Assembly (NCBI GenBank): GCA_041394365.1
Contig: JAWKIM010000006.1
Coordinates: 470,590-534,589, forward strand
DNA length: 64,000 nt
Direction: 5' to 3'
Origin: Acidimicrobiales bacterium
Lineage (GTDB): Bacteria; Actinomycetota; Acidimicrobiia; Acidimicrobiales; CAIXPF01
Each line of letters starts with the position of its first letter. Within the stretch, counting starts at the first letter, position 1. Under the pieces are notes generated by a model. The model was not told the origin of the DNA. It searched no databases and saw only the letters and a list, made by a program, of their open reading frames with translations. This document shows positions 12,999-58,261 of the stretch, one piece after another. Made by a program: the position numbers and the translations under genes.

Positions 12999-13017
12999 GG
13001 TCTGCGAGGGTGCAGCC

Positions 13018-33151: not shown

Positions 33152-33245
33152 CCGCCGTTCGGGGCCTCCAACCGGGGGCCCCGTCGTCGTTCCCGCCCCG
33201 GAAAAGCGGGCCCGCGGCCGTGCCGCCGCCTGGGAGGATGCCGCG

Positions 33246-33770: not shown

Positions 33771-33806
33771 CCGATCGGGTTCGGGCCCCGCCCTCCGACC
33801 GGCCGA

Positions 33807-38174: not shown

Positions 38175-40388
38175 ATGTCCCGCTTCTTGTACCGACTGGG
38201 CCGCGCCGCGGCCCGCCACCCGTGGAGGGTGCTCGCCGTCTGGGTGCTCGCCGCCGTCGCCGTGGTCGGGCTGCGCAGCGCCGTGGGTGGGGAGACCACC
38301 GACCAGTTCAAGCTGCCCGGCACCGAGAGCCAGCAGGCCGTCGACCTGCTGCGCGACCGCTTCCCGGCCCAGGCCGGGCTGTCCGGCCAGGTCGTGTTCC
38401 AGGCGCCGGAGGGCACCACGCTCGCCGATCCGGCCAACCGGGCGGCGGTGGCCGAGACGGCCGAGTCGCTGCGGGCCACGCCGCACGTGACCGTGGTGAG
38501 CGACCCGTTCGACCCCGCCGCCCCCACCATCGCCCCCGATGGCCGCACCGGCTTCGTGACGGTCGGTTTCGACGTGGAGAACCTGCAGCCGGCCGACGCC
38601 GAGGCCGTCATCGAAGCGGTCGAGGTCGGCCGGGAGGCGGGCCTCGAGGTGGAGGTGGGCGGCAGCATCGCCCAGGCGGCCCAGGAGGTCGAGGGCCAGG
38701 AGGCCATCGGGCTGGCCGTGGCCGTGGTCGTGCTGCTCGTCGCCTTCGGCTCGGTCGTCGCCATGGGCATCCCGATCGGTACGGCGCTGTTCGGCATCTT
38801 CATCGGGTTGTCGCTGGTGACGGTGATGGCCGGCATCGTCGACGTGCCCACCGTGGCCCCGATGCTGGCCACCATGATCGGTCTCGGCGTGGGCATCGAT
38901 TACGCCCTGTTCGTGGTCACCCGCCACCGCCAGTTCCTCCACGAGGGCTGGAGCGTGCCCGACGCCGCCGGCCGGGCCAACGCCACCGCCGGCCAGGCGG
39001 TGCTCTTCGCCGGCATGACCGTGGTGGTGGCCATCTGCGGGCTGTTCCTGTCGGGTGTGCCCGCCATCGGCACCATGGGCCTGGCCGCCGGGATCGTGGT
39101 GATCGTCTCCATGGTGGCCGCGGTGACCCTGCTGCCCGCCTTCCTGGGCTTGGCCGGCTCCTGGGTGGACCGGCTGCGCATCGGTCGCCGCCGCTCGCTG
39201 GCGGTGCAGGCCCACGACACGATGGCCGGCCGCTGGGCACACCGGGTGGGCCGCCGCCCCTGGCCCTACGCGCTCGGTGCTTTCGCCCTGCTGGTGGCGC
39301 TGGCCGCGCCCGTCCTGGCCATGCGGCTCAGCATGCCCGACGATGGCAACGCTCCGATCGACAGCACCCACCGCAAGGCCTACGACCTGTTGGCCGGTGC
39401 GTTCGGCCCCGGCTTCAACGGCCCGCTCACCATCGTGGTCGACGCCGGTGCCGGCGCCGACGTGCAGCCCGCCCTCGACCGGGTGGTCACCGCCCTGCGG
39501 GCCGATGACGGCATCGCCAACGTGGGCGCCGTGCTGCCCAACCCGGCCGGCGACACCGCCGTGATCTTCGCCTACCCCACCACGTCGCCCCAGGACGAGG
39601 CCACCGAGGACCTGGTCCACCACCTCCGCCACGACGTGCTGGAGGGTATGGCCGGGGCCGGCGGCGACACCTACGTGGCCGGCTGGACCGCCACCGGCAT
39701 GGACATCTCCGAACGGCTGTCGGCCCGCACGCCGTGGTTCATCGGTGCGGTGGTGGCCCTGAGCTTCGTGCTGCTGATGATCCTGTTCCGCTCGGTGCTC
39801 GTCCCGCTGAAGGCGGCGCTGATGAACCTGCTGTCCATCGGGGCCAGCTACGGCCTGCTGGTGGCGGTGTTCCAGTGGGGCTGGGGCGGCTCGCTCATCG
39901 GGCTCGACGAGCCGATGCCGATCTCGCCGTTCGTGCCGATGATCATGTTCGCCATACTCTTCGGTCTGTCGATGGACTACGAGGTGTTCCTGTTGAGCCG
40001 GGTGCGGGAGGAGTTCGTCCGCCACGGCGACAGCCACCGCTCGGTGGTGGACGGTCTGGCCGGCACCGCCCGGGTCATCACCTCGGCGGCGTTGATCATG
40101 ATCAGCGTGTTCGGTGCGTTCGTGCTCTCGCCCGAGCCGATGCTCAAGATGTTCGGGTTGGGCCTGGCCTCCGCCGTGCTGATCGACGCCACCGTGGTGC
40201 GCATGGTGCTGGTGCCCGCCACGATGGCGCTGCTGGGCGGGGCCAACTGGTGGCTGCCCGGCTGGCTCGACCGCATCCTGCCCCACGTCGACATCGAGGG
40301 CGGTCCCGAGCTGGGCACGCTGCCCACCGGGGCCGGCGGGGCCGGCGGCCCGGCGTTCGATCCCGATCGGGAGCCGCAGCCCGCCTGA
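38175..40388 (+). CDS. MMPL-family RND-type membrane transporter.
   Basis: MSRFLYRLGRAAARHPWRVLAVWVLAAV… followed by two 6-TM bundles with periplasmic domains. Intact, about 737 aa. Confidence 0.9.
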   Translation: MSRFLYRLGRAAARHPWRVLAVWVLAAVAVVGLRSAVGGETTDQFKLPGTESQQAVDLLRDRFPAQAGLSGQVVFQAPEGTTLADPANRAAVAETAESLRATPHVTVVSDPFDPAAPTIAPDGRTGFVTVGFDVENLQPADAEAVIEAVEVGREAGLEVEVGGSIAQAAQEVEGQEAIGLAVAVVVLLVAFGSVVAMGIPIGTALFGIFIGLSLVTVMAGIVDVPTVAPMLATMIGLGVGIDYALFVVTRHRQFLHEGWSVPDAAGRANATAGQAVLFAGMTVVVAICGLFLSGVPAIGTMGLAAGIVVIVSMVAAVTLLPAFLGLAGSWVDRLRIGRRRSLAVQAHDTMAGRWAHRVGRRPWPYALGAFALLVALAAPVLAMRLSMPDDGNAPIDSTHRKAYDLLAGAFGPGFNGPLTIVVDAGAGADVQPALDRVVTALRADDGIANVGAVLPNPAGDTAVIFAYPTTSPQDEATEDLVHHLRHDVLEGMAGAGGDTYVAGWTATGMDISERLSARTPWFIGAVVALSFVLLMILFRSVLVPLKAALMNLLSIGASYGLLVAVFQWGWGGSLIGLDEPMPISPFVPMIMFAILFGLSMDYEVFLLSRVREEFVRHGDSHRSVVDGLAGTARVITSAALIMISVFGAFVLSPEPMLKMFGLGLASAVLIDATVVRMVLVPATMALLGGANWWLPGWLDRILPHVDIEGGPELGTLPTGAGGAGGPAFDPDREPQPA

Positions 40389-40444
40389 GGCGGCATCGCC
40401 GGCCAACGGCAGGCCGGCCGGCCAGACCATGACCTCCACGCGGA

Positions 40445-40479
40445 GGGGCCCGGTTCCCGAGTGATCGGGGACCGGGCCC
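40445..40479. terminator. GC-rich hairpin (GGGGCCCGGTTCCC…GGGGACCGGGCCC) about 57 nt after the MMPL stop.
   Basis: Inverted repeat read from the sequence. Confidence 0.5.
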
Positions 40480-40501
40480 GCTGCGCCTGAGGGGAGCTTT
40501 C

Positions 40502-40555
40502 GGGTTCTCGTGTGGGTTCTCGTGTGGGGATCTCGTGTGGGGTTCTCGTGTGGGG
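40502..40555. repeat. 13-bp tandem repeat (GGGTTCTCGTGTG ×4, one variant GGGGATCTCGTGT).
   Basis: Read from the sequence. It lies between the MMPL terminator and the stop of the minus-strand ORF 40566–40895. Confidence 0.7.
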
Positions 40556-40565
40556 GTCGGTGCCG

Positions 40566-41815: not shown

Positions 41816-43080
41816 AGCGTCAGCTCGGTCTCGGTGCGGGTGCGGGCCACGAGCCGGCCCCGGGCGAACACCAGCCGGTCACCGGGCGCCGACGCCACCG
41901 CCTCGCGCACCGTCGTCGCCCGGATGGCGAGCAGCTCGGCCGGGTCGCCCGGCGCCATCGTGACCGGCGGCAGGCCCATGGCCCGACGAGCCGCGTTGCT
42001 GATCGCCTCGTAGGCGTCCTCGGCGCTGAGGTGGGCGGCCATGACCAGCAGCGCGGCCGTCTCCAACGGGTCACCCCGGCCCACCGTGTTGAACGGATCC
42101 TGCAGGTTGTCGGCGCCGGCGGCCACGTTCACGCCCGCTTCGCGCAGCGCGGCGATGGCGGTCAGGCCCCGGGGTTGGGCGGTGCGGATGCCGCGGGCCT
42201 GGAGGAACAGGTTGGTCTGGGGCAGCGTCACCACCGAGATGCCCGCCGCCGCGGTCTCGGCGGCCACCTCGGCTTGGAGCTCGGGCGGTTGGATGCCGAG
42301 CGAGGTGCAGTGGCTGGCCACCACGCCGTGGCGGAAGCCGGTGGCGATGACCCGGCGGGCGAGGGTGCGCAGGTCGAGCGAGTGCGGGTCGAGGTTCTCG
42401 TCCATGTGCAGATCGAGGGGCTTGCCCCGCTCGGCGGCGGCTTCGAGGGCGAGCTCGAGGTGGGTGGTGCGGTCCGGGTCGATGTGCGGGCAGCCGCCGC
42501 CCACGTCCACGCCCAGATCGAGGGCTTCGGCCAGCAGCCGGCGGTTGGTGGCGCCCGCGTCGCCGCCGAGGGGCCGGCCGATGAGGGCGACGATCTGCAG
42601 GTCGAAGACCGGTGCGAGCTCGGCCTTGAGCTGCAGCAACGCCTCGACGCTGCGCAGCCCGATGAGCTCGTTGAGATCGACGTGGGTGCGGATGGCGGTG
42701 CAGCCGTGTGCCAGGTTGTGCAGGGCGGCGCGGCGGGCCCGACGGTGGATCTCCTCGACGGTGCGGTCTGGGTAGCGGGCCAGGTAGGCCTCGATGGCGC
42801 CGTGCAGGTCGCCGGCCGGGTTGGGGATGAGGTCGGCGGTGAGGGCCTTGTCGAGGTGGGCGTGGGGTTCGGCCGGGGCCGGGAGCAGGAGGTAGCCGTC
42901 GAGGTCGAGCTCGATGTCGAGGTCCGGGCCGGGGTCGGGGTCGGGGTCGGTGGGGCGTGGGGGGCCGGCGGGTCCGGCTGCGGCCGGCTCGATGGAGGCG
43001 ATGGTGCCATCGGAGGGTGAGAGGCGGACGTCGACCAGTCGGCCGTCGGCGAGGCGGGCGGAGCGCAGCAGCATGGCCGT
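41812..43080 (-). CDS. Amidohydrolase-superfamily protein (cytosine-deaminase-like).
   Basis: Metal-binding HAHLD motif, …HCTSL… and a TIM-barrel amidohydrolase layout. The real start is probably MLLRSARLADGR…, about 43070. Confidence 0.75.
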   Translation of the reverse strand, partial: TAMLLRSARLADGRLVDVRLSPSDGTIASIEPAAAGPAGPPRPTDPDPDPGPDLDIELDLDGYLLLPAPAEPHAHLDKALTADLIPNPAGDLHGAIEAYLARYPDRTVEEIHRRARRAALHNLAHGCTAIRTHVDLNELIGLRSVEALLQLKAELAPVFDLQIVALIGRPLGGDAGATNRRLLAEALDLGVDVGGGCPHIDPDRTTHLELALEAAAERGKPLDLHMDENLDPHSLDLRTLARRVIATGFRHGVVASHCTSLGIQPPELQAEVAAETAAAGISVVTLPQTNLFLQARGIRTAQPRGLTAIAALREAGVNVAAGADNLQDPFNTVGRGDPLETAALLVMAAHLSAEDAYEAISNAARRAMGLPPVTMAPGDPAELLAIRATTVREAVASAPGDRLVFARGRLVARTRTETELTL

Positions 43081-43336
43081 GCAGTCTGCCCCCGGCCGCC
43101 GGCGGGGCCCGAGCCGTACGGCGACGCTGACGACCGTCTGTCCAGCGGTCATCCGGCGGGCCGAGAACCCGCTACCCGGACAGACCTGCGCGTTCCCGGC
43201 GCGAGCCACCCCGCTCAGTCCATCGCGTGACGCAACGATGCTGGTCAAAGCCAGGCTGGTCCGACGGTGTCGAGCGCCCGCGTCGGGAACGCGCAGGTTT
43301 CAGGGCGCCCGGCACCGCTGGGGGTCGTGGTCGGCG

Positions 43337-43806: not shown

Positions 43807-43880
43807 GCGCTCGTAGCTCAATTGGATAGAGCATCTGACTACGGATCAGAAGGTTGGGGGTTCGAGTCCCTCCGAGCGCG
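43807..43880 (+). tRNA. tRNA-Arg (anticodon ACG).
   Basis: Manual fold: acceptor GCGCTCG/CGAGCGC, D-arm GCTCAATTGGATAGAGC, anticodon stem TCTGA/TCAGA with loop CTACGGA, T-arm GGGGGTTCGAGTCCCTC. Confidence 0.9.
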
Positions 43881-44095
43881 CAGATCAAGCCCAGGTCAGA
43901 GTGGGTGTTCCTCGACCTGTGCTCGCTCGTGTTCGGGGTGGCATCTGACCCACGCTGGCTGATTGCGCCCAACTCCCAACGGCTTGGCGAAATCGAGGTC
44001 CAACGTGAACTCCTCCAACGTCAGGTCGCGCTTCCCGAAGGTGACTGGCGGGCGTAGCCCGGCAGGGCGAAGCGCCGGTGGCGTGGCCACTGTCG

Positions 44096-45476
44096 TCAGT
44101 CCCGCCACGGCATGGTGTTGAACGACACGAGGACGCGGGCGCGGTCAGCCGTGAGGTAGCTCTCGAGGGAGCCGGGCGGCGTGGCGGTGCTCCACATGGT
44201 CGAGCCGGTTGCCGTGTCCAGCGCAGAGAGGCGCCCGCCGCCGAGGAGGAAGGAGCGGTGTCCTTCGATCGCCTGGGGTGCGCCGAGGTAGTTGCCCGGA
44301 TCGATGGGCTGCTCCCAGCGCACCGCGCCGCTGCGCAGGTCGTAGGCCGTCGTACGCCCCGCAGCGTCGGTGCCCACGGTGGTGATGACGATGCCGTCCC
44401 CAACCGGCCAGAGATCGCCGTAGGTTGGGGCACCGGCCGCGGTCCACAGCGTCGTTCCGTCGTCGGCGTCGAGTGCTTGCAGCACGGGCCGGCGCATCGG
44501 AGGCAGGCTCACCGGAGCGTCGATGGTGGGTGGCGGGGACGCTTCGTAGATGTAGCCGACGACGGTTCCGTCCGCCGCCGCAGGATGATGCAGCACCGGG
44601 GCCCGCCACCGCTCCGTTCCGTCCTCGGTGTCGATCGCAACCGACAGGTAGGTGATCGTCGGAGGGAGCGAGCCGGGCGGGTGGAGCCCGGGTTCGGGTG
44701 TCTCGATGGTGGGCAGCACGATCATCGTCGATGTGTCGCTGGTGGCGACGGCGCTGGTGGCTCGCGACACGCCCACCTGCGAGGAATCGACGATCGTGAA
44801 CGGAATGGTCCAGCGTGTTGTTCCAGTGCGGCGGTCGAGCCCGGTGACGGTGTGGTCGGTGGCGAGGATCGTCATGTCCTCGGTGTTGGCGATCGGGCCC
44901 AGGGTGCCACTCGTGCCGGGGATGCTCGCCGGATCGACGCGCCAACGTTCGGCGCCCGTGGTGGCGTCGACGCCGATGATCGTGGTTGTGCCGCCGGTGT
45001 CGATGGGCAGCACGACGATGTCGCCGGCCGCGATCGGTCCCGGTGGCCGTCCCCACAGCCCGAACGAACCACCTCCAGCCAGCTCGCGCTCTCCACAACT
45101 CGCTACCGCTGCTGGCAAGCAGGGCGACGGCGTCGTGCTGCTGCGCCGGTGGGTTTCCGGTGGTGTCCTCGGTCAGCGAGGTCAGGAGCACGATCTGCGG
45201 CGAGGAGCCGACGATCTCCCGCCACGCCAACTCGGCGGAGCAGTACCACCAGGCCGGTTCCCCTCGGTCGAGCGAGTAGCTCGCCAGGGCCGGCGACGTG
45301 CCCGGGGCACACGACGAAGCCAGGCTGGTCAACGTCGGGGCGGGGCCGGTCGTCGACGAAGGCACGGCCGCGTCGGCGGTTGTGGTGGTCCCCGCCTCTC
45401 GAGTCGGCTGGCTTCCCCGCAGCCGGTCAGGGCCATGGCCACGACGAGCACCGATGTCCACGTTCGCACGGCGTTC
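44096..45476 (-). pseudogene. PQQ-like beta-propeller lipoprotein (BamB-like), at least two frameshifts.
   Basis: Lipoprotein signal MNAVRTWTSVLVVAMALTGCG at about 45476, then propeller repeats (…TGAERWR…, …DGTTLWT…, …SGAVRWEQ…) spread over two or three frames. Confidence 0.6.
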
Positions 45477-45837
45477 ATGCCCTGAACCTCCCGCGGCTGT
45501 GGATCCGCTGACCGGCTTCGATCCTCGCGCCGGACTCGCCGCGCTCGGAGAGTCCTCTGTCATCCGCAAGGGCGGCCGAATGTAGTTGCCCCCTTGCGAC
45601 CGACGGCAACGGCGCCCGGGTGCGCTGACCGATGCTCACTTGGCTCGCCTGTCCCAGCCCGGCACGGCAGCGGCGAACCGCGGGGTGCCCAGCTCCCCTG
45701 GGGACGGGTGTCGCACGCTGCGTGTGCGCCCTCGGCTTCCCGTTTCGTTAGGCTCTCGCTTCGAGCAAGCGCCGGAGGTGACAGGCCAGCTACGGGTTTC
45801 CGACAGTGCGCGTGGCAGAACTGATGGCGGAGGGGCC

Positions 45838-46805
45838 ATGGCAGCATCATTTCGGTTCGGTGGCTTGACAACGGCCGGCCCTCGGGAAGCGACGGAGCAG
45901 TTTGCTCGCACTGCCGAGACCGTTGGCCTCGACACGATCTTGATGGCGGACCATCTGATCGAGATCGCAGATGCGCCGACATCGCTGATGTTCATGGCCG
46001 ATCAAACCGATCGCATCCGCATCGGGACCTACGTGATGTGCGCCGACTTCCGGCACCCGGTGGTCATGGCCCGCGGCCTCGCCAACATCGACGAGCTCAG
46101 CGGGGGTCGCCTCGAGGTCGGGTTGAGAGCGGGCTACCTGCGCCGCGAGTACGAGGCCGCAGGCATTCCCCTTGCATCGGGAACGGTGCGCCTGGCCCGG
46201 TTGCAGGAGACCACTGCGATCGTGAAAGCGATGCTGACCACCAGCCCTGTGGAGTTCACCGGCAATCACTTCGCGCTCAGCGGGCAAGTTGCCTTTCCGG
46301 TCGCCCGACAGCGGCCACGCCCGCCCTTCTTGATCGGGGGTGGCGGGCCCAAGCTGCTCAGCTGGGCAGCGGCGGAAGCCGACATCGTGAGCTTCGTCCC
46401 GCAATCGGCAGTGGACGCAACCTGCGGGTGTCGACCATGACCGGCTCGGCCGTTGATGCACGCGTCGCACTCGTCAGGACGCTCGCCGGGGAGCGCGCAG
46501 ACGAGCTCGAGTTGAACACGCTGCTCTGGCATCTCGACATCACCGCCGACCGGCGCAGCGCCGCCGAACGATGGCTTGACAGCGTCCGCAACCAGAGCGG
46601 TGCCTACACGCGAGCCTTCACGTTCGACAGTGAGGTCACCGCAGCGGACATCCTCGACTCGCCCTACTTCGCCTTCGGGACCGTCGAGGACATCGTCGAG
46701 CACTTTCGTGCAATGCGAGCCCGGACAGGCATCTCGTACTGGGCGCTGATGCCGCACCACCTTGCGCCCTTCCTCCCTGTGCTCGAAGCGCTCAAGACCG
46801 GCTGA
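45838..46805 (+). CDS. LLM-class F420-dependent oxidoreductase (second paralogue); one frameshift at about 46430.
   Basis: MAASFRFGGL… luciferase-like barrel. The C-terminal part (…DSPYFAFGTVEDIVEHF…) continues in the frame of ORF 46038–46805. Confidence 0.7.
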
Positions 46806-46838
46806 ACGGCTCTCGGTGCAGGGACCGCCGGCCGCCCG

Positions 46839-47237
46839 ATGGCGATCGAGCTCCTCGAACTCGTTCCGTTGCGTGATGAGCTGGAGGCCTTGCCGCGCGA
46901 TCTGAAGGCGGCGCAGACGGAGATCAACCGGCTGCAGGGTCGGCTGGGTCCTGCTGCGCCGTACGGACACGTTTCTGGGGGCAGCCCGAGTTCGGCGACC
47001 ATGATCGGTGCGGCTGTCGACGACTACTCCTACCCCACCACGATCGCCAGGCACAGCGGTCGGTCCCCTCGCAACGAGCTCTGCTATGCGGCCCACGGCG
47101 AGGCTTCGTACCTGCTCGCTGATGGCGGTCGGTCAACGGACTGGGTGCCGAACCTACTGGCCGGTTTCCGTGACGATGGCCGACCGGCGGGAGTGGTCGA
47201 CGGGGAGCCGGGTGGTGGGGCACACTGGGTGGCGTGA
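46839..47237 (+). CDS. Hypothetical coiled-coil protein. Its N-terminus is paralogous to the N-terminus of the PrimPol-helicase at 48290.
   Basis: ELLELVPLRDELEALPRDLKAAQTEINRLQGRLG compared with EQHELARLREELEASRRDLQAAQAEIDRLRGLLG. Confidence 0.4.
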   Translation: MAIELLELVPLRDELEALPRDLKAAQTEINRLQGRLGPAAPYGHVSGGSPSSATMIGAAVDDYSYPTTIARHSGRSPRNELCYAAHGEASYLLADGGRSTDWVPNLLAGFRDDGRPAGVVDGEPGGGAHWVA

Positions 47238-47473
47238 CCGATGAGCTGCTGGCACGGATCGTGGTCGATCCGCAGATCTGTTTCGGGAAGCCGACGGTGC
47301 GCGGGCATCGGATCTGGGTTTCGCTGGTGCTCGGGTACCTGGCGGAGGGCTGGTCGGTCGAGCAGATCGTGGAGGAGTTCCCGGGTCTGGAGCCTCTCGA
47401 TGTTCGAGCGTGTGTCGCGTACGGGGCTCGGCTGGCCGACGTCCGTTTCGTTGACCTCGACGATGTGGCGTGA
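47234..47473 (+). CDS. DUF433-domain protein (putative antitoxin of a DUF433/DUF5615 pair).
   Basis: 79 aa, …RHSGRSPRNELCY… no; the diagnostic stretch is VDPQICFGKPTVRGHRIWVSLVLGYLAEGWSVEQIVEEF. It overlaps the next gene by 4 nt (ATGA). Confidence 0.75.
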   Translation: MTDELLARIVVDPQICFGKPTVRGHRIWVSLVLGYLAEGWSVEQIVEEFPGLEPLDVRACVAYGARLADVRFVDLDDVA

Positions 47474-47847
47474 GGTTCAAGCTCGACGAGAACCTCGGTC
47501 GGAGCGCGCTCGAAGCCTTCCGCAACGCCGGCCACGATGTCTCGAGCGTTGTGCTGCAGCACCTCGCCGGCGCGACGGATCAGCGGGTGCTCGCCGTCTG
47601 CGAGGTGGAGGGCCGTGTGCTCGTCACGTTGGACCTCGACTTCGCCAACCCGCTCCACCACGATCCTCGCGGCACGCCCGGCGTCGCGGTGCTGCGCCTA
47701 CCGGCGAACGCCGGCCCTTCTGATGTCGGGCGTGCGATCGAGACCCTGCTGGACGCGGTCGCCGCCCATGACATCGGGGGGTCGCTGTGGATCGTTCGCG
47801 CCGACCGCGTCCGGGTCTGGCAACCCACCTCGACCGACGGCGCGTGA
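47470..47847 (+). CDS. DUF5615-domain protein (PIN-like, putative toxin partner).
   Basis: MRFKLDENLGRSALEAFRNAGHDV… Mut7-C/PIN-like fold. It is translationally coupled to the DUF433 gene. Confidence 0.75.
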   Translation: MRFKLDENLGRSALEAFRNAGHDVSSVVLQHLAGATDQRVLAVCEVEGRVLVTLDLDFANPLHHDPRGTPGVAVLRLPANAGPSDVGRAIETLLDAVAAHDIGGSLWIVRADRVRVWQPTSTDGA

Positions 47848-48142
47848 GCGGCCGGCTCTGCTGGCGCCATCGCCCTCGTGGGCACGGTGGATACCGTTTA
47901 CAAGGGACGCCAGCTCGACGTCTCCTCACGGACGGTGGCCGGCTCACAGGTCTCCAGACGCCTCGCACCCGGCATGAACCGAGTTCCGGCGTGAGAACTG
48001 CCGTGAGAACCATCCGGCGGACAAACCCGGCCGCTGACGGTCGTCGAAGGGCAGCGATGGTCACACTATTCGCCCAGGCCAGGGTGCGTATCGGGCACTC
48101 ATGGTCGCTCCTGGTCGCTCGTCGTAACGGCGCTCGCGAGTT

Positions 48143-48184
48143 CTACGGATCAGAAGGTTGGGGTTCGAGTCCCTCCGAGCGCGC
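48143..48184 (+). repeat. 42-bp direct repeat of the tRNA-Arg 3' end (att-like island boundary).
   Basis: CTACGGATCAGAAGGTTGGGGTTCGAGTCCCTCCGAGCGCGC compared with tRNA positions 43839–43881. It differs only by a single G in the GGGGG run. Confidence 0.85.
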
Positions 48185-48289
48185 TGAGGACGACCAGGTG
48201 CAAGGCCCTTTCCTTCGGGGGAGGGCCTTCGTCGTTGACGGCCTCAACGGCGATGCCGGGTTGGTGCCGGTGGGTGGGATCATGGCCGG

Positions 48290-50716
48290 ATGGAGGGCCC
48301 GGGAACCGCCGAGCAGCACGAGTTGGCGCGGCTGCGCGAGGAGCTCGAGGCCTCTCGGCGCGACCTGCAGGCGGCGCAGGCGGAGATCGATCGGCTCCGG
48401 GGCTTGCTCGGCTTGGATCGCCCGGTACCCGAGGGGCCGGGCGACGGCCGGCTGTTCGTGCCCGATGCGCCGCCGACCGACGACGCTGACCCCGTCGCTC
48501 ACGCCGCCGCGGCCGGCAATGCCCCGGCCGGCGCTGCGGTGTCCCGGTCTTCGCCGCCCGGGGAGAAGTTGGCGTTGTTCCGCCGCCTGTTCGCCGCTCG
48601 CACCGATGTGTTCGCCCTGCGATGGGAGAACCGTTCGACGGGCAAGGCCGGGTGGATGCCGGCTCGCAACGGGGGCCGGGATGGGCCGTTGCGTCCCCTC
48701 ACCGAGGAGGTGCTGCGGGCCCATCTCGAGGGCCGAGACCACGTGGGCGTGTACCCGCTGCGCCACGGCGACGTGTGCACGGTGCTGGCGTGCGACTTCG
48801 ACGGCGCCTCGTGGGCGTTGGACGCCCGGGCCTTCCACGATGCGGCCATCGCCGCCGGTCTGCAGCCGCTGCTCGAACGCTCCCGTTCCGGTCAGGGTGC
48901 GCACGTCTGGCTGTGCTTCTCCCAGCCCGTTCCGGCCGCCTCGGCACGACGGTTGGGGGCCGGGCTGCTGCGTCGGGCCATGGATGAACGCGTCGAGCTC
49001 GATCTGGCGTCCTACGACCGGTTGTTCCCCTCGCAGGACCAGCTGCCCCGCCAGGGTTTCGGGAACCTGATCGCGCTGCCGTTGCAGGGCGAGTGCCGGC
49101 GCCGGGGCACGACGGTGTTCCTCGACCCGACCACGTTGGAACCGTTCGAAGACCAGTGGGCGGTGCTCGGTGCGGTCCGGCCGGCCGATCGGTCGACCGT
49201 GGAGCGGCTCGCCGACCAGCTCGACCCGTTCGAGCGCCCGGCCCGGCAACGTCCGCCTTTCGCCCGTGCGCCGGTGCCTTCGGTGGTGCGGGCCGAGCTC
49301 GGGGCCGGGGTCTCCTTCGATCGGATCGGGCTGCCGGCGTGGTTGGTGGCCGAGCTCAAGCATGCGGCCTCGCTGCCGAACGGCAGGTTCTTCGAGAAGC
49401 AGCGCCTGCGGTTCTCCACCTGGGACACGCCGAGGGTGATCCGCAGCTACCGGGAGTCGCTCGACCGGCTGGAGATACCGCGCGGTCTGCTCGAGCGGGC
49501 GCGCGGCATCGTCGAGGGTGCCGGTGCCGCGCTCGAGCTGTCCGACCGCCGCGTCATCGTGGAACCGTTCACCTTCCGGTTCGACGGGACGCTGCGGGCC
49601 GAGCAGCAGGCGGCCGTGGCGGCGCTGGCGGGTCACGACCACGGGATGCTCATCGCCCCGCCGGGCACCGGCAAGACCGTGATCGGCTGCGCCCTCATCG
49701 CCGCCCACCAGACGCCGACGTTGGTGTTGGTGGACCGTCGCCCGCTGGCGGAACAATGGCGGGAACGGCTCGGTATGTTCCTCGGCCTGCAGGCGCGCCA
49801 GATCGGCCAGAGCGGTGGCGGGCGCAGCCGACTGAGCGGCATCGTCGACATCGCCCTGCTGCAGTCGCTGGCCCGCCAACCCGACCGGGCCCTCGAGCTG
49901 TTCGGTCGCTACGGGCTGGTGATCGTCGACGAGTGCCACCACGCGCCGGCGGCCAGCTACGAGCCCATCCTGGCCGCCGCCACCACCCGCCGGTGGATCG
50001 GCCTGACCGCCACGCCGTTCCGGGCCGACCGCCTGGACCCGCTGATCGCCTTCTACTGCGGGCCCATCCGCCACGAGATCCCGGCGGAGAGCACGCCGAG
50101 CGCGTCGCTGCCGCGGCAGCTGCACGTGCACACCACCGAGCTGCACCTCGACGAGGACACCCCGCACATCCAGGACGTGTTCCGTGCCCTCGCCCACGAC
50201 GACGCCCGCAACCGTCTGATCGTCGAGCACCTGACCTCGCTGGCCCGGGAGGCACGGAAGGTCCTGGTGCTCTCCCAACGCAAGGACCACCTCGAAGCGC
50301 TCGCCGCCCTGCTCGACGCCGAGGGCCTCGATCCGGTCCTCCTCGTCGGTGGGCAGGGACGCAAGCTCAGCCGTGCCGTGATCGACGAGCTCGGCGAACG
50401 GGTCCGCGGCGCCGATGGGGTGCTGGCGCTGGCCACGGGCAGCTACCTGGGCGAGGGCTTCGACCTGCCGGGCCTCGACACGCTCGTACTCGCCTTCCCG
50501 GTGTCGTTCAAGGGTCGGATCATCCAGTACGTCGGCCGGCTGTTGCGCCCCGACCCCGCCAAGACCGACATCGTCGTGCACGACTACCACGACCCGCACG
50601 TAGCGGTGCTCGTGGCGATGGCCCGCAAACGGCTGGCCGCCTACCGGCAGCTCGGCTTCGTCACCCCCGCCCACCTGCCCGCCGTCCCGCCCAGCCGACC
50701 GGACGACGCCTTCTGA
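48290..50716 (+). CDS. Archaeo-eukaryotic primase (PrimPol-like) – SF2 DEAH-box helicase fusion protein with an N-terminal coiled coil.
   Basis: AEP motifs (GVYPL; TVLACDFDGASW = DxD; GAHVWLCF = sxH; FGNLIALPLQG), then Walker A PPGTGKT, DECH (VIVDECHH) and the helicase C-terminal domain. The ORF is intact at 808 aa. Confidence 0.8.
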   Translation: MEGPGTAEQHELARLREELEASRRDLQAAQAEIDRLRGLLGLDRPVPEGPGDGRLFVPDAPPTDDADPVAHAAAAGNAPAGAAVSRSSPPGEKLALFRRLFAARTDVFALRWENRSTGKAGWMPARNGGRDGPLRPLTEEVLRAHLEGRDHVGVYPLRHGDVCTVLACDFDGASWALDARAFHDAAIAAGLQPLLERSRSGQGAHVWLCFSQPVPAASARRLGAGLLRRAMDERVELDLASYDRLFPSQDQLPRQGFGNLIALPLQGECRRRGTTVFLDPTTLEPFEDQWAVLGAVRPADRSTVERLADQLDPFERPARQRPPFARAPVPSVVRAELGAGVSFDRIGLPAWLVAELKHAASLPNGRFFEKQRLRFSTWDTPRVIRSYRESLDRLEIPRGLLERARGIVEGAGAALELSDRRVIVEPFTFRFDGTLRAEQQAAVAALAGHDHGMLIAPPGTGKTVIGCALIAAHQTPTLVLVDRRPLAEQWRERLGMFLGLQARQIGQSGGGRSRLSGIVDIALLQSLARQPDRALELFGRYGLVIVDECHHAPAASYEPILAAATTRRWIGLTATPFRADRLDPLIAFYCGPIRHEIPAESTPSASLPRQLHVHTTELHLDEDTPHIQDVFRALAHDDARNRLIVEHLTSLAREARKVLVLSQRKDHLEALAALLDAEGLDPVLLVGGQGRKLSRAVIDELGERVRGADGVLALATGSYLGEGFDLPGLDTLVLAFPVSFKGRIIQYVGRLLRPDPAKTDIVVHDYHDPHVAVLVAMARKRLAAYRQLGFVTPAHLPAVPPSRPDDAF

Positions 50717-50802: not shown

Positions 50803-50964
50803 CCGGCGTCCTTCGCGGTCGATTCGACGTCGATTCGCCTTGGTCGACCGGGGCGGGCGAGTCGGCCCCGTTCCGTGGCCGCCCGTGACCCCGGGGGCCC
50901 GGAGCGTCGCCTGACGTGCTGTGATGTTGTGTGTGGCGACCAATTCCGAATCGAGCTCGAATCG
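50803..50964. repeat. Palindromic MITE-like repeat, copy 3, between the PrimPol-helicase and the HelD-like genes.
   Basis: Arms CGATTCGACGTCGATTCG (50810–50827) and CGAATCGAGCTCGAATCG (50937–50954). Confidence 0.8.
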
Positions 50965-51176
50965 AGCGCGACGGATTTCCCACACACCCTGCCGAACCAG
51001 GGCACAGGACCGAGGAGACCAGCCCGTCTGCAGGGACCGAGCCGGCCAGCCCGTCGGCGGAGACCGAGCCGGCGCACCACGCGGCTCGCAGCGACGACCC
51101 GGGCCGGGCGGACCGCGCCCCGCGGCCTAGATTCGCGACGGTCCCGGCGCCCGGTCGGCGACCACCCCGAGGTGTG

Positions 51177-53530
51177 ATGACGGAGCTGTCCGAAGAGCTG
51201 GAGCGCGAACGCGAGTACCTGCGCGCCGCCCACGAACGGGTCCAACGCCTGCGCGACGGCGCCCGGTTGGTGGCCGAGCAGGCCGGCGCCCGGGTGGCCG
51301 CCGACGAGATGGAACCGGGCGCCCAGTTCACCCGTGACGTGGCGGTGGTGCACGCCGCCCACCGGGCCACCATGCTCGACATCCCCGCCGATCGGCTCTG
51401 CGTGGGCCGCATCGACGGCGACCTGGCCGGCGAGACCAACAGCACGCTCTACATCGGGCGGGTGGCCGTCTCCGACGAGCACGGCGACCCGATGATCGTG
51501 GACTGGCGGGCCCCGGCCGCCGCCGCGTTCTACCGCGCCCGCCCCGGCGACCCGATGGGCGTGCGCCGCCGTCGCCACTTCCGCTGGCGCGGCGGCCAGC
51601 TGGTGGGCCTCGACGACGAGCTCGTCGACCGCAGTGCCCTCGACCACCGCGAGCTGCACCTGGTGGGCGAGGCCGCCCTCCTCGCCGCACTGGAGGCGCC
51701 CCGCACCGGGCGCATGACCGACATCGTGGGCACCATCCAGGCCGACCAGGATCGCATCATCCGCCGCCCGGCCCGCGGCGTGACCATCGTGCAGGGCGGA
51801 CCCGGCACCGGCAAGACGGCGGTGGCGTTGCACCGCGCCGCGTACCTCCTCCACGAGCTCGCCGGTCGCGGCGATCTGGCCGCGGTGCTGTTCATCGGCC
51901 CCACCGACACGTTCCTGCGCTACGTGGGCGACGTGGTGCCCTCCCTCGGCGAGGACCAGATGATGATGGCCACCGCCGCCGACCTGGGCCCCCCGGTGAC
52001 CGTGACCGGTCGCGACGCCGACGAGGTGGCCCGCATCAAGGGCGACGTCCGCATGGCCGCGGTGCTCGTCCGCGCCGTGCAGGGCTTCGAGCAACCGATC
52101 AGGACCACCGCCCAGATCGGCTGCGGCCGGTACTACCTCAAGCTCGAACCGGCGGCGGTGCGCAAGCTGGTGGTGCGCACCCGCAAGCTGGGTGGCACCC
52201 ACAACGAACGGGTGCCGCTGGTGCGCGACGGGGTGATCGAGCTCCTCGCCGCCGACTTCGAACGCCGGGTGCGCGCCGACGTGGCCGCCGGGCGCCTCCT
52301 GCCCGGCGCGGTGCCCAAGTTCCGCCCGGTGCTCGACCGGGCCGCGGTGCGCGCCGTGTGCGATCGGATCTGGCCCCCGCTCACGCCCCAGCTCGCGCTC
52401 AGCCGGCTGCTGGCGTCCCGTGCCCGCCTGCGCCACGCCACCAAGGACCTGTTCGAACCGGCGGAGGCCGAGCTGCTGCACCGGCCGAGCTCCGCCGGGT
52501 GGACCGCCGCCGACGTGTCCCTCCTCGACGAGCTCGCCGTGCTCCTCGGTCGCGACGACCAGGACGACGGCGAGGCCAGCGGCCGTCGTGCGAGCGAACT
52601 GGCCGGTGCGTCGTTCCAGCTGGTGGAGACGGCGCTGGCCGAGGAGATGCAGGCCGCCCTGGAGAACCGCACCGCCGACTGCCCGCGCTGCCAGCTGGAG
52701 CTGGCCTACGGCCGCGCCGAGGACGGCACCCTCACGTTGACCTGCACCAACCCCGTGTGCCCCGGCGCACCTGGCCGGCGTACGACATCATCGGTGAGGA
52801 CGCCACCCAGTTCCTCGCCGCCGTGATCGAGGAGCTGTCGGACCGCTACGCCGAGGTCGAGTGCGCGTCCCCTGCATCGCCGATCGGCGCTTCGCCCACG
52901 TGGTCATCGACGAGGCGCAGGACGTGTCGGCCATGCAGTGGCGGGCCATCGCCCGGCGCTGCCCCAGCCCGGCGTTCACCGCGGTGGGCGATCTCGACCA
53001 GGCCAGCCAGCCGTGGTCGATCCATGACTGGGGCCCGGTCTTCGAGCTCGGCGGCCGCAGCGGCGCCGAACTGGTGGAGCTGACCGTCAACTACCGCACG
53101 CCGGCGGAGGTGATGGCCTTCGCCGTCGACGAGGTGGCGCAGCACGGGCGTACCGTGTCGGCGCCCGCCGCCATCCGCTTCTCCGGTGCGTCGCCGCAGG
53201 TGCGCACCGGCGGGGTCGATGCACTCGAGGAGCTGTTGGTGGAGGCCCGCGGCGGTGGGCGAGGCCGGCACCGTCGTCGCCGTCGTGCCCGAGGGCCTCA
53301 CCCGTCCCCACGATGACGCCTTCCTCACCGCCACCCAGACCAAGGGTTTGGAGTTCGACGGGGTCATCGTGTTCGACCCGGCCGCCATCGCCGCCGAGTC
53401 ACCGTTCGGCGCCACCCGCCTCTACGTGGCGTTGACCCGCACCACCCGACTGCTGTGGGTCGTCCGGCCCGCCGTGGGTGGCGCGCGGTGGTGGTCGGCG
53501 GCTGATCACGGCCGCGGGCTGATCACGGCC
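51177..53530 (+). CDS. HelD-like (UvrD/helicase IV family) helicase; at least two frameshifts (about 52780 and about 53240).
   Basis: HelD-type N-terminal domain (LYIGRVAVSDEHGDPMIVDWRAPAAAAFY), Walker A GGPGTGKT, motif II HVVIDEAQD, NYRTP and the C-terminal TKGLEFD…ALTRTT pattern, spread over three frames. Confidence 0.75.
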
Positions 53531-54107
53531 GGGCGTCGGGTGCGTCGGCCGTGTGCGCCGGTCGGTAGCGCAGCGCCACCGCACCGGCGGCGAGCTCCTG
53601 ACGGCCGACGAGCTCCAGGTCGAGTCGCTCGCGCAGGCCGGCGAGCAGCGTCGGGCCGTGGCCCGCCACGATGGGGTGCACGACGAACTCGTACTCGTCG
53701 ATCAAGCCCAGGTCGGCCAGCGCCAGCGGCAGGGTCACGCCGCCCACGTGCAGGCCCTCACCGGGTTCGTCCTTCAGCCGCTGCACGGCGGTGGCCAGAT
53801 CCCCCTGCAGGAGCTCGGCGTTCCAGTCGACCCGCTCGAGGGTGCTCGACACGACGTACTTCCGGGCGGCGTCGATCGTTGCGGCGAAGGGGATCATCCA
53901 ATCGGCCATCCACTCCGGCCACCGCCCCGGGGCCGGCTGCCGCCACGCTTCTTCCATCATCTGATAGGTCACCCGGCCGAAGAGCAGGGCGTCGGCCCGC
54001 GCCAGGTTGGCGGCGTGATGGCGGTGCAGTTCCTCGGTGGGGTTGCCCACCCGGTGATCGATGCACCCGTCGAGGGTGACGTTGATCGAATAGCGCAGTG
54101 GCCTCAT
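53523..54107 (-). CDS. Dihydrofolate reductase-family protein (RibD C-terminal domain type).
   Basis: MRPLRYSINVTLDG…VGGVTL… pattern with an RBS GGAGA upstream. Confidence 0.75.
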   Translation of the reverse strand: MRPLRYSINVTLDGCIDHRVGNPTEELHRHHAANLARADALLFGRVTYQMMEEAWRQPAPGRWPEWMADWMIPFAATIDAARKYVVSSTLERVDWNAELLQGDLATAVQRLKDEPGEGLHVGGVTLPLALADLGLIDEYEFVVHPIVAGHGPTLLAGLRERLDLELVGRQELAAGAVALRYRPAHTADAPDARP

Positions 54108-54299
54108 GGTCGGTCTCCTCGTCGTCGCCGAACGCGTGCGGTTGCAGTCCGACGCAGCGGGCGGTGCGTTCTCATCGGTGGTGCTCGGAGCGCGTCGTAC
54201 GCGGAACGTGACCATCACCGGGTCGAAGGTGACCGTCGCCCCGCTACGGTGCGCCGGCCCGGTGGCTACCGTGCCCATCATCCTGGTGGGAGGTGGACC

Positions 54300-55947
54300 A
54301 TGGCCCTGCTCGGGAGCTTCCGTCGTTCGATCGGGCGCCGCGGCGCGGTGGTGGTGCTCGGCCTGAGCCTTGTGGTTGCCATGGCGGGTGCGCCGTCGAC
54401 GGCCGGGTCGGCCCAGGTCGTCGGCGCCGACGTGGTGGTCGGTCACTCGTTCCTCACGGTGTGGGGGCCGTCGGTGGTGGGTGCAAACGTGAACGTGCAG
54501 AACCTCGGGCCGGAGGTGGCCTCGGGCGTGGTGGTCACGTTCACGGTGCCGGAGGGCGCGGCCATCGTCTCCGGCGAGCAGCTGACCTTCAGCGGCGCCG
54601 CCGCCACCACCGAACCGCAACCGTGTGACGTGGCCGCCGATCGGCGCGCCCTGACCTGCACCATGCCGAGCGACCTGGCGCAGACCGGTGGTCTGTTGGC
54701 CTCGGCGGTGGTGGCCAACGCCGGGCTGGCCGCCGGCTCCACGATCGACCTCCGCGTCGAGGTGGGTGCCGCCGTGGCCGACCCGGAGACGTCGAACAAC
54801 GTGCGCGAGCTGCCGGTCACCTTCACCGGCCCGGCGGTGGCGCTCGACCTGGCCGATCTCGCGCTCACCCTGACGTACCCGCCGGTATCCGGCGACGACC
54901 CGGCCGTCGTCGGCGTCTACTTCAACCTGGCGTACACCGGGCCCCGCCCCGGCCACCGACGTGCAGGTCACGGTGCAGGCCTCCGGCGGGTGCGGTGCTG
55001 ACACCGCGCTGGTGGTCGGGCAACGACCCGATGTCCTGCCCCCTGGAGGATCCGGCGCCGGTGCTCGTCTGCACCATGGCCCGCTACGACAAGGGCGGCA
55101 ACATCCCCGTCTCGGTGGGGGTGTCGGTCATCAACGTCGGCCTGCCGGCCGGCTCGGTCATCGACGTCGAGGCGACGGTCACCCATGCCCAGCTGGACCC
55201 GACCCCCGATGATCACACCGTCACCGTGCCCGTGGCCTTCGCGGGCGGCCCGGTGCCGACCATCCCGGGGGAGAGCACCGCGCAGCTCGTCCTTCGAGCG
55301 GCACAGGCGCCCCAGTTCGATCCGCAGCCGCCCGTCGTTGCCGACGGCCGCGTCGTGGTGTTCCACTGGGAGGTGGCCTCCTCCGGTCCTACACCGGTCA
55401 CCCGGGTGCGGTGGGTGTTGACCCTCGGCCCGGGCATGACCATGCTGCCGCCGTTCACCCCGTGGGGACCCGTCGTCTGCACCGTCCGCGCCGGTCCTGC
55501 TGTCGGCGCCGGCGCCGGCGGGACGACGTTCGACTGCGTCGCCGACCGGCCGCTGCTGGCCGGCTCGACGTTCTGCAGGTGTCGCTCCGAGCCTCGTTCG
55601 GCGCGAGCGTCGGGGCCACGCTGTGGACGGAGGCCTACGTCGCCTCGGAGCGCACCGACCCGGTGCCGGCCGACAACCATGCGGTGCAGAGCGTCGCCGT
55701 GCCCGAGCGGCGCCCGTCGCCGTCGTTCCCCACTCCCGGCGGTGCGCCTGCGGCGTCCACCAGCATCCCGACCATGTCCGACGCGTCCCTGCCCGCCACG
55801 GGCCGTCCTGCGATGGTGCCGGTGCTCGTGGCCGGCGTGCTGCTCGGCGTCGGCTTGGCGCTGCGCGGCGTCGCCGGACGGTCCCGTCAGCGCTCGGCCC
55901 TGCCCAGCAACTCGCCGAGGCCGGGCCAGTCCATGCGGTTGAGGTAG
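54300..55947 (+). CDS. Secreted DUF11-repeat surface protein with an LPATG sortase signal; at least three frameshifts.
   Basis: Signal peptide MALLGSFRRSIGRRGAVVVLGLSLVVAMAG, DUF11 repeats (SNNVRELPVTFTGP, PADNHAVQSVAV), and C-terminal LPATG plus a hydrophobic segment plus an R/K tail. It overlaps the next minus-strand gene convergently by about 60 bp. Confidence 0.65.
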
Positions 55948-58237: not shown

Positions 58238-58261
58238 CCTCGGCCCGATGCCGCGAGCCGT

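What the first reader, a model, noticed from the sequence alone, without database searches (positions are those of the whole stretch)
43807..48184. Integrase-less 4.3-kb genomic island at the tRNA-Arg(ACG) 3' end with a 42-bp att duplication
The last 43 nt of tRNA-Arg (43839–43881) are repeated at 48143–48184, with a single G-run difference. The interval carries typical accessory cargo. It holds a frameshifted BamB-like lipoprotein, an F420-type LLM oxidoreductase paralogue (a second copy is at 19718), a coiled-coil fragment and an intact DUF433/DUF5615 addiction-type pair. No integrase or excisionase is present, so the element is probably immobilised. A strong hairpin (48202–48229) follows the repeat.
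Basis: seen in the sequence. Interest (0 to 1): 0.6.

Follow-up and report, generated by a model that had tools for sequence, protein, structure and literature searches.

The report
Integrase-less islet at tRNA-Arg gene
A 4.3-kb stretch of foreign DNA sits behind a tRNA-Arg gene, bracketed by the footprint that site-specific integrases leave; it has no integrase of its own, which makes it an ordinary decayed genomic islet and not a new kind of element.

Summary
tRNA-Arg(ACG) lies at 43807-43881. Its last 43 nt (from anticodon-loop position 33 to the 3' end) recur at 48143-48184, one G shorter. A 12-bp-stem hairpin follows at 48202-48229.

No integrase, excisionase or transfer domain was found in any of the six reading frames between the repeats.

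- **Same site, different occupant.** A lineage about 96% identical in the flanks carries a different 6.6-kb island at this tRNA, with a tyrosine integrase. It is bounded by the same 43-nt block starting at the same nucleotide.
- **The block is a used attachment core.** The exact 43-mer occurs in nine IMG/VR viral contigs without a full tRNA, each next to a related integrase.
- **The islet likely once resembled its neighbour.** The first 60 nt after the window's tRNA resemble that island's attachment arm.
- **Cargo.** An F420-dependent LLM oxidoreductase, a BamB-like lipoprotein, a DUF433/DUF5615 pair and three gene remnants.
- **The "frameshifts" are doubtful.** The source is an Acidimicrobiales MAG with systematic one-base homopolymer deletions, and a short-read contig shows the LLM gene intact.

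Verdict: a decayed, CIME-like tRNA islet at an integration hotspot. It is a new member of a known kind and of low interest.

The parts
43807..43881 (+). tRNA-Arg(ACG) gene, the integration target. It is intact, and under the standard model its 3' half is supplied by the element.
   Evidence: ARAGORN; Rfam tRNA 69.6 bits, full model. Identical in the relatives L001-L003 and in the distant relatives L018 and L019.
43839..43881 (+). attL core: 43-nt identity block running from anticodon-loop position 33 to the 3' end of the tRNA.
   Evidence: Alignment A1; repeat family D5; 23-nt core found twice, zero expected. The same block, with the same start, bounds the relative's integrase island and is present in IMG/VR att sites.
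43882..43940 (+). Element-side arm next to attL. It is a diverged copy of the trailer and hairpin that follows the repeat in the relative's island.
   Evidence: Local alignment score 39-43 against the relative's post-repeat trailers, versus 17-18 +/- 3.7 for shuffles; 0 of 1000 shuffles reach it. Its own hairpin is weak, z = -0.96.
43980..44008 (-). Remnant of a second DUF5615-type toxin gene, in inverted orientation.
   Evidence: 29-nt inverted repeat, 93% complementary to 47624-47652 inside the DUF5615 gene (I2). Its translation FTLDLDFAKPL matches VTLDLDFANPL at 9 of 11 positions.
44096..45481 (-). BamB-like (PQQ_2 beta-propeller) lipoprotein gene with a lipobox (MALTGC). It has two frame changes in the window.
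   Evidence: Pfam PQQ_2, 3e-23. Six-frame reading. The repaired 461-aa product aligns collinearly with P0002 (467 aa, 40% identity, 2e-82). NCBI annotates only the 340-aa piece.
45838..46805 (+). F420-dependent LLM-class oxidoreductase gene (TIGR03621 family). The window lacks one G at 46418.
   Evidence: Pfam Bac_luciferase. NCBIfam TIGR03621, 281.9 bits against a cut-off of 213. Intact at 322 aa in the short-read contig L097.
46839..47237 (+). Chimeric 132-aa ORF. Residues 7-37 resemble the N-terminal coiled coil of the neighbouring AEP-TOTE helicase. Residues 58-110 are the first half of a Ddn-like F420H2-dependent reductase domain (PF04075); the second half is missing.
   Evidence: BLASTP 21/31 identical, 1e-8. 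DNA repeat D1, 74% over 102 nt. Only itself found in the 5.8-billion-protein search. phmmer hits to small PF04075 proteins. Identical in L097.
47234..47473 (+). DUF433 gene, the putative antitoxin. Its GTG start overlaps the stop of the 132-aa ORF (GTGA).
   Evidence: Pfam DUF433, 1.5e-23. Exact protein also found in Logan contigs L008 and L097.
47470..47847 (+). DUF5615 gene, a PIN-like putative toxin. Its start overlaps the DUF433 stop.
   Evidence: Pfam DUF5615, 1.4e-19, with weak PIN_10 and Mut7-C hits. Exact protein also found in L008.
48143..48184 (+). attR core: the displaced 3' fragment of tRNA-Arg, 42 nt, one G fewer in the G-run.
   Evidence: Not a tRNA by ARAGORN or Rfam.
48202..48229 (+). 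Strong hairpin with a 12-bp stem and UUCG loop. It is probably the original terminator of the tRNA gene, displaced along with the 3' fragment.
   Evidence: Fold of 48185-48245: -30.4 kcal/mol, z = -2.5. Unrelated to any trailer in the relative. Homology to the relative resumes at 48239.

Best explanation
The segment 43882-48184 is what remains of a mobile element that a tyrosine integrase once inserted into the tRNA-Arg(ACG) gene.

**How the repeats arose (inferred from the standard model).**
- The crossover took place in the anticodon loop.
- The element carried its own copy of the tRNA from position 33 to the 3' end, so the gene was restored. That copy is attL, 43839-43881.
- The original 3' fragment and its terminator hairpin were pushed 4.3 kb downstream. 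They are attR, 48143-48184, and the hairpin at 48202-48229.

**What happened afterwards (inferred).**
- The integrase module normally sits directly behind the tRNA. Here it was deleted or replaced.
- Three gene scraps mark the rearrangements: an inverted DUF5615 piece, the 5' end of an AEP-TOTE-type helicase gene, and half of a Ddn-like reductase gene.

**What is left.**
- Probably functional cargo: an F420-dependent LLM oxidoreductase and a BamB-like lipoprotein.
- A DUF433/DUF5615 toxin-antitoxin-type pair, which would disfavour loss of the segment.

**Mobility.** The islet cannot move by itself. Both att cores are intact, so a matching integrase supplied in trans could still excise it. The island that occupies this site in a sister lineage carries such an integrase. 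That is the CIME situation.

**Shown:** the repeats, their register, the absence of an integrase, the strain variability, and the use of this att core by integrases elsewhere.
**Inferred:** the order of events, which repeat copy is native, and any present-day mobility.
For: 1. The repeat is exact apart from one G, has two copies only and none expected by chance. It starts at tRNA position 33 (read).
2. The sister lineage (L001, L002, L003, L009; about 96% identical flanks) has a different 6.6-kb island at the same tRNA. Its integrase gene starts 156 nt after the tRNA. It is bounded by the same 43-nt block with the same start. The two islands share no cargo.
3. The exact 43-mer occurs in 11 IMG/VR contigs. 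Nine of them have no full tRNA, and each of those has a tyrosine integrase 29-39% identical to the sister lineage's within about 1.3 kb on the 3' side.
4. The 60 nt after the window's tRNA resemble the sister island's att arm; 0 of 1000 shuffles reach the score. This suggests a related attP and hence a lost integrase.
5. No integrase, excisionase or relaxase appears in six frames, and there is no integrase anywhere in the window.
6. Composition differs. The islet is 68.3% GC against a window mean of 71.5%. Islet genes have GC3 of 0.75-0.87, against 0.90-0.94 for flanking genes.
7. Gene remnants are present.
8. Homology to the sister lineage stops at the tRNA end and resumes at 48239.
Against: - No genome with an empty site was found, so the insertion is inferred from the footprint and from a differently occupied site.
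- The attL and attR junctions are supported only by the MAG contig. The short-read contigs L008 and L097 cover 45714-48044 and reach neither junction.
- The sister lineage has three extra genes (TetR, DJ-1/PfpI, bestrophin) between its attR and the AEP-TOTE gene, and a different trailer after its repeat. At least one lineage therefore has a more complicated history, and the assignment of the hairpin as the native terminator is an inference.
- The islet's mosaic content means it may be the residue of more than one event.
Confidence: 0.8

Rival explanations
1. The 4.3 kb is not one decayed element. It is the compressed residue of several successive integrations at this hotspot (tandem accretion), followed by deletions that removed the internal att sites and all integrases.
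For: The content is a mosaic: an inverted DUF5615 remnant next to attL, a 5' piece of a diverged AEP-TOTE gene, and half a Ddn-like gene fused into one ORF. The sister lineage appears to have an island plus an extra three-gene segment behind the same tRNA. Tandem accretion with decayed elements is described as common (PMC5704250).
Against: No third or degenerate copy of the repeat is detectable inside the islet, downstream of it, or in the relative's extra segment. The best local alignments are at chance level. This is a refinement of the main explanation more than an alternative to it.
Confidence: 0.12
2. The second copy is the leftover of an old tandem tRNA-Arg gene duplication (a tRNA pseudogene). 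The DNA between the copies accumulated by processes unrelated to site-specific integration.
For: tRNA gene fragments do occur in prokaryotic genomes (PMC9897764). No integrase is present.
Against: There is no trace of a 5' half (alignment A1). The fragment begins at exactly the nucleotide where the repeat begins in the relative's integrase-bearing island, and within 2 nt of where it begins in the viral att sites. The interval is compositionally foreign and differs between strains.
Confidence: 0.03
3. The arrangement is an assembly artefact of an error-prone long-read MAG: a chimeric join, or a collapse of population variants, at the 43-nt repeat.
For: The contig shows systematic homopolymer deletions. 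The junctions are not covered by independent contigs. Another MAG from the same project breaks inside the AEP-TOTE gene. The population is heterogeneous at this locus.
Against: A 43-nt repeat is far too short to mislead a long-read assembler. The interior of the islet is reproduced at 99.6-100% identity in short-read contigs from two other runs. The att-arm similarity at 43882-43940 fits a genuine attL.
Confidence: 0.05

Closest known systems
CIME (cis-mobilizable element), as defined for the ICESt1/ICESt3 family in streptococci and reviewed in PMC5704250
   Same: It is flanked by attL and attR of a site-specific integrase at the 3' end of a tRNA gene. [quoted passage not shown] It sits at a site where related, integrase-bearing elements integrate in sister strains.
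   Different: No mobilisation or accretion has been observed here. The host is an uncultured Acidimicrobiales bacterium. The parent element is unknown, and no conjugation module is present in the sister island either, so the ICE/IME ancestry that is part of the CIME concept is not shown.
Islander-type tRNA/tmRNA genomic islands (PMC4383910)
   Same: A regenerated target tRNA and its displaced 3' fragment mark the two ends precisely. [quoted passage not shown]
   Different: Such islands are expected to carry a tyrosine integrase inside (PMC4383910 describes integration as integrase-catalysed). This one has none.
The 6.6-kb integrase island at the same tRNA-Arg in GCA_050186215.1, GCA_050246965.1 and GCA_050176135.1 (L001-L003)
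   Same: Same target and same 43-nt core with the same start. The arm after the core is related. It also has a toxin-antitoxin-type pair at its attR end (there a HEPN protein with an upstream partner).
   Different: It has an integrase and two HTH_17 (excisionase-like) genes, TetR and BenE. It shares no cargo with the window's islet. Its repeat extends to about 106 nt at 95% identity.
DUF433 / DUF5615 (PIN-like) two-gene modules, predicted type II toxin-antitoxin systems (family assignment from Pfam; the toxin-antitoxin prediction is from my own knowledge of comparative-genomic surveys, not checked here)
   Same: Two small adjacent genes with overlapping stop and start codons. The second has weak PIN_10 and Mut7-C similarity.
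   Different: No experimental evidence here. A third, chimeric ORF is translationally coupled upstream.

Membership tests
tRNA-targeting integrative genomic island (Islander definition) | Intact target tRNA gene at one end | tested here: met
   ARAGORN; Rfam 69.6 bits, full-length model.
tRNA-targeting integrative genomic island (Islander definition) | Displaced 3' fragment of the same tRNA as a direct repeat at the other end | tested here: met
   43839-43881 versus 48143-48184, 42 of 43 positions matching.
tRNA-targeting integrative genomic island (Islander definition) | Repeat begins at a recognised crossover sublocation (anticodon loop, T-loop or 3' end) | tested here: met
   It starts at tRNA position 33, two bases before the anticodon. 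The relative's island has the same start. The sublocation concept is from bioRxiv 10.1101/2020.11.02.365908.
tRNA-targeting integrative genomic island (Islander definition) | Tyrosine integrase gene inside the island, usually next to the tRNA | tested here: not met
   Six-frame Pfam scans. tblastn with the relative's integrase against the whole window.
tRNA-targeting integrative genomic island (Islander definition) | Variable presence among close relatives | tested here: met
   The sister lineage has a different island at the same site, and homology breaks at the tRNA end and at 48239. An empty site was not found.
CIME (cis-mobilizable element) | Retains both attL and attR | tested here: met
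   Both cores are present and differ by one G, which may be an assembly error.
CIME (cis-mobilizable element) | Lacks integration and transfer genes | tested here: met
CIME (cis-mobilizable element) | Derives from an ICE or IME by decay | tested here: inconclusive
   The attL arm is related to that of the integrase-bearing island and gene remnants are present. No parent element was found.
CIME (cis-mobilizable element) | Can be excised or transferred by the machinery of a related element integrated next to it | not testable with these tools
   This needs reads spanning attP/attB junctions, or an experiment.
Second tRNA gene or tRNA pseudogene | Recognisable 5' half or cloverleaf at 48100-48184 | tested here: not met
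   No tRNA hit at E up to 10. ARAGORN is negative. The upstream 39 nt do not align with the tRNA's 5' half.
Prophage, satellite, or actinomycete integrative conjugative element | Structural, replication or conjugation genes | tested here: not met
   The only Pfam families found are PQQ_2, Bac_luciferase, DUF433, DUF5615 and a weak PF04075 hit. There is no DNA match to phage or plasmid collections.
Type II toxin-antitoxin pair (DUF433 / DUF5615) | Two small adjacent co-oriented genes from the two families, with overlapping start and stop | tested here: met
   Pfam. GTGA overlap at 47470-47473.
Type II toxin-antitoxin pair (DUF433 / DUF5615) | Toxicity of one partner, neutralised by the other | not testable with these tools
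   Requires expression experiments.

The most novel reading that the evidence does not exclude
The islet may be a working hitch-hiker and not a dead remnant. In that reading it is an integrase-less element kept in place by its toxin-antitoxin pair. It would be excised, and perhaps spread, by integrases of the co-circulating tRNA-Arg islands in the same Acidimicrobiales population. Its chimeric 132-aa protein carries a copy of the N-terminal coiled coil of the adjacent AEP-TOTE primase-helicase. That protein might bind and modulate this putative conflict-system enzyme.
Probability: 0.06. Interest if true: 0.5.

Novelty: new member of a known kind. Interest (0 to 1): 0.2.

Why it matters
On its own it matters little. 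Integrase-less, att-flanked islets behind tRNA genes are a well-described end state of integrative elements.

It has three modest uses:
1. It marks tRNA-Arg(ACG) as an integration hotspot in an uncultured Acidimicrobiales lineage. Two different occupants in two roughly 96%-identical lineages show ongoing exchange there.
2. It gives a defined attL/attR pair and a candidate integrase (in the sister lineage) for anyone who wants a site-specific integration tool for this poorly tractable group.
3. It is a caution for annotation. The apparent pseudogenes in this MAG are mostly homopolymer errors.

Tried and rejected
1. **Third or degenerate repeat copy.** I looked in the window downstream of 48184, inside the islet, inside the relative's island and in the relative's extra three-gene segment. 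Only chance-level alignments turned up.
2. **Integrase remnants.** Six-frame Pfam scans and tblastn found none.
3. **Shared cargo between the two islands.** tblastn and tblastx found none.
4. **An intact parent element or other copies of the islet.**
   - The metagenome scan with the LLM protein gave only 31%-identical hits.
   - Plasmid and phage collections gave no match.
   - The GenBank phage collection does not contain the 43-mer.
   - IMG/VR does not contain either junction sequence.
5. **An empty site.**
   - Exact-protein look-ups of the glyoxalase and the helicase returned nothing or returned the relative's type.
   - The second MAG from the same project starts inside the helicase gene.
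6. **Distant relatives.**
   - Among the genome-contig loci scanned for tRNAs, L018, L019 and L041 (amidohydrolase 58-66% identical) keep tRNA-Arg on the same side of the amidohydrolase and creatininase genes. Downstream they have unrelated genes and no repeat. No integrase domain was found among the large downstream ORFs checked in L019 and L041.
   - Helicase orthologues at 76-83% identity lie in other contexts.
   - Neither set settles the ancestral state.
7. **The 132-aa ORF as an orphan coiled-coil gene.** Rejected: a full HMMER search shows half of a PF04075 domain.
8. **The LLM at 19718 as a recent paralogue.** Rejected: 27% identity.

Full report
**1. The observation**

ARAGORN finds three tRNA genes in the window. 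One is tRNA-Arg(ACG) at 43807-43881, and Rfam agrees (69.6 bits, full model).

Reading the sequence and the four-way alignment A1 shows that 43839-43881, CTACGGATCAGAAGGTTGGGGGTTCGAGTCCCTCCGAGCGCGC, recurs at 48143-48184. The second copy has four G instead of five in the G-run. A 23-nt core of the repeat occurs exactly twice in the 64 kb and never in 100 shuffles.

The repeat begins at tRNA position 33, two bases before the anticodon, and runs to the last base of the gene. The second copy is only a fragment:
- ARAGORN does not call it.
- An Rfam scan at E up to 10 gives no tRNA hit there.
- The 39 nt upstream of it do not align with the 5' half of the tRNA.

The hairpin at 48202-48229 (AAGGCCCTTTCC-TTCG-GGGGAGGGCCTT) is real. 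The 61-nt segment folds at -30.4 kcal/mol, z = -2.5.

**2. What lies between the repeats**

Pfam, NCBIfam and a six-frame reading give the following.

| Coordinates | Strand | Feature |
|---|---|---|
| 43980-44008 | - | 29-nt piece, 93% complementary to part of the DUF5615 gene. It encodes FTLDLDFAKPL and is a remnant of a second toxin gene. |
| 44096-45481 | - | BamB-like PQQ_2 beta-propeller lipoprotein with a lipobox |
| 45838-46805 | + | F420-dependent LLM oxidoreductase, TIGR03621 family, 281.9 bits against a cut-off of 213 |
| 46839-47237 | + | 132-aa ORF |
| 47234-47473 | + | DUF433 |
| 47470-47847 | + | DUF5615 (PIN-like) |

The last three genes overlap by GTGA.

The 132-aa ORF is not simply a coiled-coil fragment.
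- Residues 7-37 are 68% identical to the N-terminus of the AEP-TOTE primase-helicase that starts at 48290. At the DNA level this is 74% over 102 nt.
- A full HMMER search of 1.84 billion representative proteins shows that residues 58-110 match the first half of small PF04075 (Ddn-like, F420H2-dependent reductase) proteins. The second half is missing.
- It is therefore a fusion of two gene scraps. It is identical in an independent short-read contig, so it is not an assembly error.

Six-frame Pfam scans of 43882-48238 find no integrase, excisionase, relaxase, replication or structural domain.

**3. A caveat about the source**

The 340-aa BamB piece and the 132-aa ORF are each matched 100% by an NCBI protein recorded on one 558-kb contig and named as from an Acidimicrobiales bacterium MAG; that contig is taken to be the window's source.

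Compared with its closest relatives, the window has many one-base deletions, nearly all in G or C runs. That pattern is typical of an unpolished long-read assembly.
- The LLM gene is out of frame in the window because one G is missing at 46418. A 99.6%-identical short-read contig (L097, Logan SRR32609467) has that G and an intact 322-aa gene.
- The two frame changes in the BamB-like gene fall in a four-base run (45415-45418) and in a GC repeat (around 45085). Repairing them gives a 461-aa protein that aligns end to end with a 467-aa homologue.
- The "frameshifted" cargo, and possibly the one-G difference between the repeats, should therefore not be taken as evidence of decay.
- The decay that is solid consists of the three gene remnants and the missing integrase.

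**4. Relatives**

Exact-protein look-ups found three MAGs (GCA_050186215.1, GCA_050246965.1, GCA_050176135.1). They are 99.8% or more identical to one another and about 96% identical to the window on both sides.

Their homology to the window runs up to the end of the tRNA and resumes at 48239, 51 nt before the AEP-TOTE start codon. In between they carry something else:
- a 6.6-kb island with a tyrosine integrase starting 156 nt after the tRNA;
- two HTH_17 genes, TetR, BenE and a HEPN-containing pair;
- closure by the same 43-nt block starting at the same nucleotide;
- then three further genes (TetR, DJ-1/PfpI, bestrophin) before the AEP-TOTE gene.

The two islands share no protein. A further Logan contig (L113) has the same bestrophin/AEP-TOTE junction.

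It is clearly not met. No genome with an unoccupied site was found.

**5. The 43-mer as an attachment core**

The exact 43-mer occurs in 11 IMG/VR viral contigs.
- Two contain a whole tRNA-Arg.
- Nine contain no tRNA at all.
- In each of those nine, a tyrosine integrase 29-39% identical to the sister lineage's lies within about 50-1300 nt on the 3' side.
- In these sites the identity with the tRNA starts two bases further upstream (GACTACGG...).

This is the usual attP-int layout. It shows independently that this block of tRNA-Arg is a target used by a family of integrases.

**6. Did the islet once have an integrase?**

The 60 nt after the window's tRNA (43882-43940) are significantly similar to the trailer that follows the repeat in the sister lineage, at both its attL and its attR (score 39-43 against 17-18 +/- 3.7; 0 of 1000 shuffles). 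The 60 nt after the window's distal repeat are unrelated to either.

Under the standard model, the sequence after the restored tRNA comes from the element. The islet's attP arm is therefore related to that of the integrase-bearing island. This argues that the islet lost an integrase and did not simply never have one.

By the same logic, the distal hairpin is the best candidate for the tRNA's original terminator. The three extra genes in the sister lineage would then be an older insertion whose distal end was lost. This ordering is inference. No degenerate third repeat supports it.

**7. Composition**

The islet is 68.3% GC against a window mean of 71.5%. Its genes have GC3 of 0.75-0.87, against 0.90-0.94 for the flanking genes.

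**8. Wider context**

Among the genome-contig loci scanned for tRNAs, L018, L019 and L041 (amidohydrolase 58-66% identical) keep tRNA-Arg on the same side of the amidohydrolase and creatininase genes. Downstream they have unrelated genes and no repeat. No integrase domain was found among the large downstream ORFs checked in L019 and L041. Synteny therefore breaks at the tRNA.

The AEP-TOTE helicase family is very large (more than 7000 hits at E < 1e-50). Orthologues at 76-83% identity sit in other neighbourhoods, one of them next to an integrase and an antitoxin gene. That gene may itself be accessory.

The islet's DNA has no counterpart in plasmid or phage collections.

**9. Comparison with known kinds**

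The structure meets every Islander-type criterion except the defining internal integrase. [quoted passage not shown] Whether it behaves as one, by excision or accretion with an incoming element, cannot be tested here. The ICE/IME ancestry implied by that term is not shown.

**10. Verdict**

This is a decayed, att-flanked islet at a tRNA integration hotspot in an uncultured actinobacterium. It is a new member of a well-known kind.
- Interest: 0.2.
- Confidence in an integration origin: about 0.8. The remainder is split between a multi-event history (0.12), an assembly artefact (0.05) and a tRNA duplication remnant (0.03).

Noticed in passing
window 31337-36699, 52768, 52862, 62305, 62640 and elsewhere: Compared with roughly 96%-identical MAGs, the window has many one-base deletions, almost all in G or C runs. 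The HelD/HelR-like gene (50931-54079) is split into three ORFs, whereas the relative has one 777-aa gene. This is probably an unpolished long-read assembly, so frameshift-based pseudogene calls in this window are unreliable.
   Followed up: partly
window 48290-50716 and 50931-54079: An 808-aa AEP-TOTE primase-helicase fusion (Pfam PF22548 plus ResIII/DEAD) is followed by a HelD/HelR-like RNA-polymerase-recycling ATPase. The pair is conserved in the sister lineage. Helicase orthologues at 76-83% identity sit in quite different neighbourhoods, one of them next to an integrase and an antitoxin gene. No TPR, OB or TBP partners of the described TOTE systems were seen.
   Followed up: partly
L001 12886-19459 (GCA_050186215.1) and its copies in L002 and L003: A compact 6.6-kb island at the same tRNA-Arg. 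It carries a tyrosine integrase, two HTH_17 genes, TetR, a BenE transporter and a HEPN-containing pair, and is flanked by a 106-nt repeat at 95% identity. It looks like a currently competent element and has no replication or conjugation genes.
   Followed up: partly
window 54180-55865 and 58230-60281: Two further segments (1.7 and 2.0 kb) are present in the window but absent from the sister lineage. The second has lower GC (67-69%) and an ORF with a DUF6923 repeat. No terminal repeats or mobility genes were found.
   Followed up: partly
window about 4300-13000: This is the lowest-GC stretch of the window (down to 62.8% over 4.3 kb near 6500-10800). Its ORFs match alpha/beta hydrolase, fatty-acid desaturase and EAL domains, and several ORFs have no Pfam match. 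It may be another acquired region.
   Followed up: partly
L114 (GCA_041394305.1, contig JAWKIK010000016.1), position 1: A second MAG carrying a member of the same 90%-identity protein cluster has its 140-kb contig ending about 41 codons into the AEP-TOTE gene. That is the stretch also present in the islet's 132-aa ORF. Population heterogeneity or this short repeat may break assemblies here.
   Followed up: no
window 40341-40560 and 42920-43335: There are short tandem-repeat length differences (12- and 18-nt units) and a highly diverged patch at the 5' end of the amidohydrolase gene, relative to the sister lineage. The surrounding flanks are about 96-97% identical overall.
   Followed up: no
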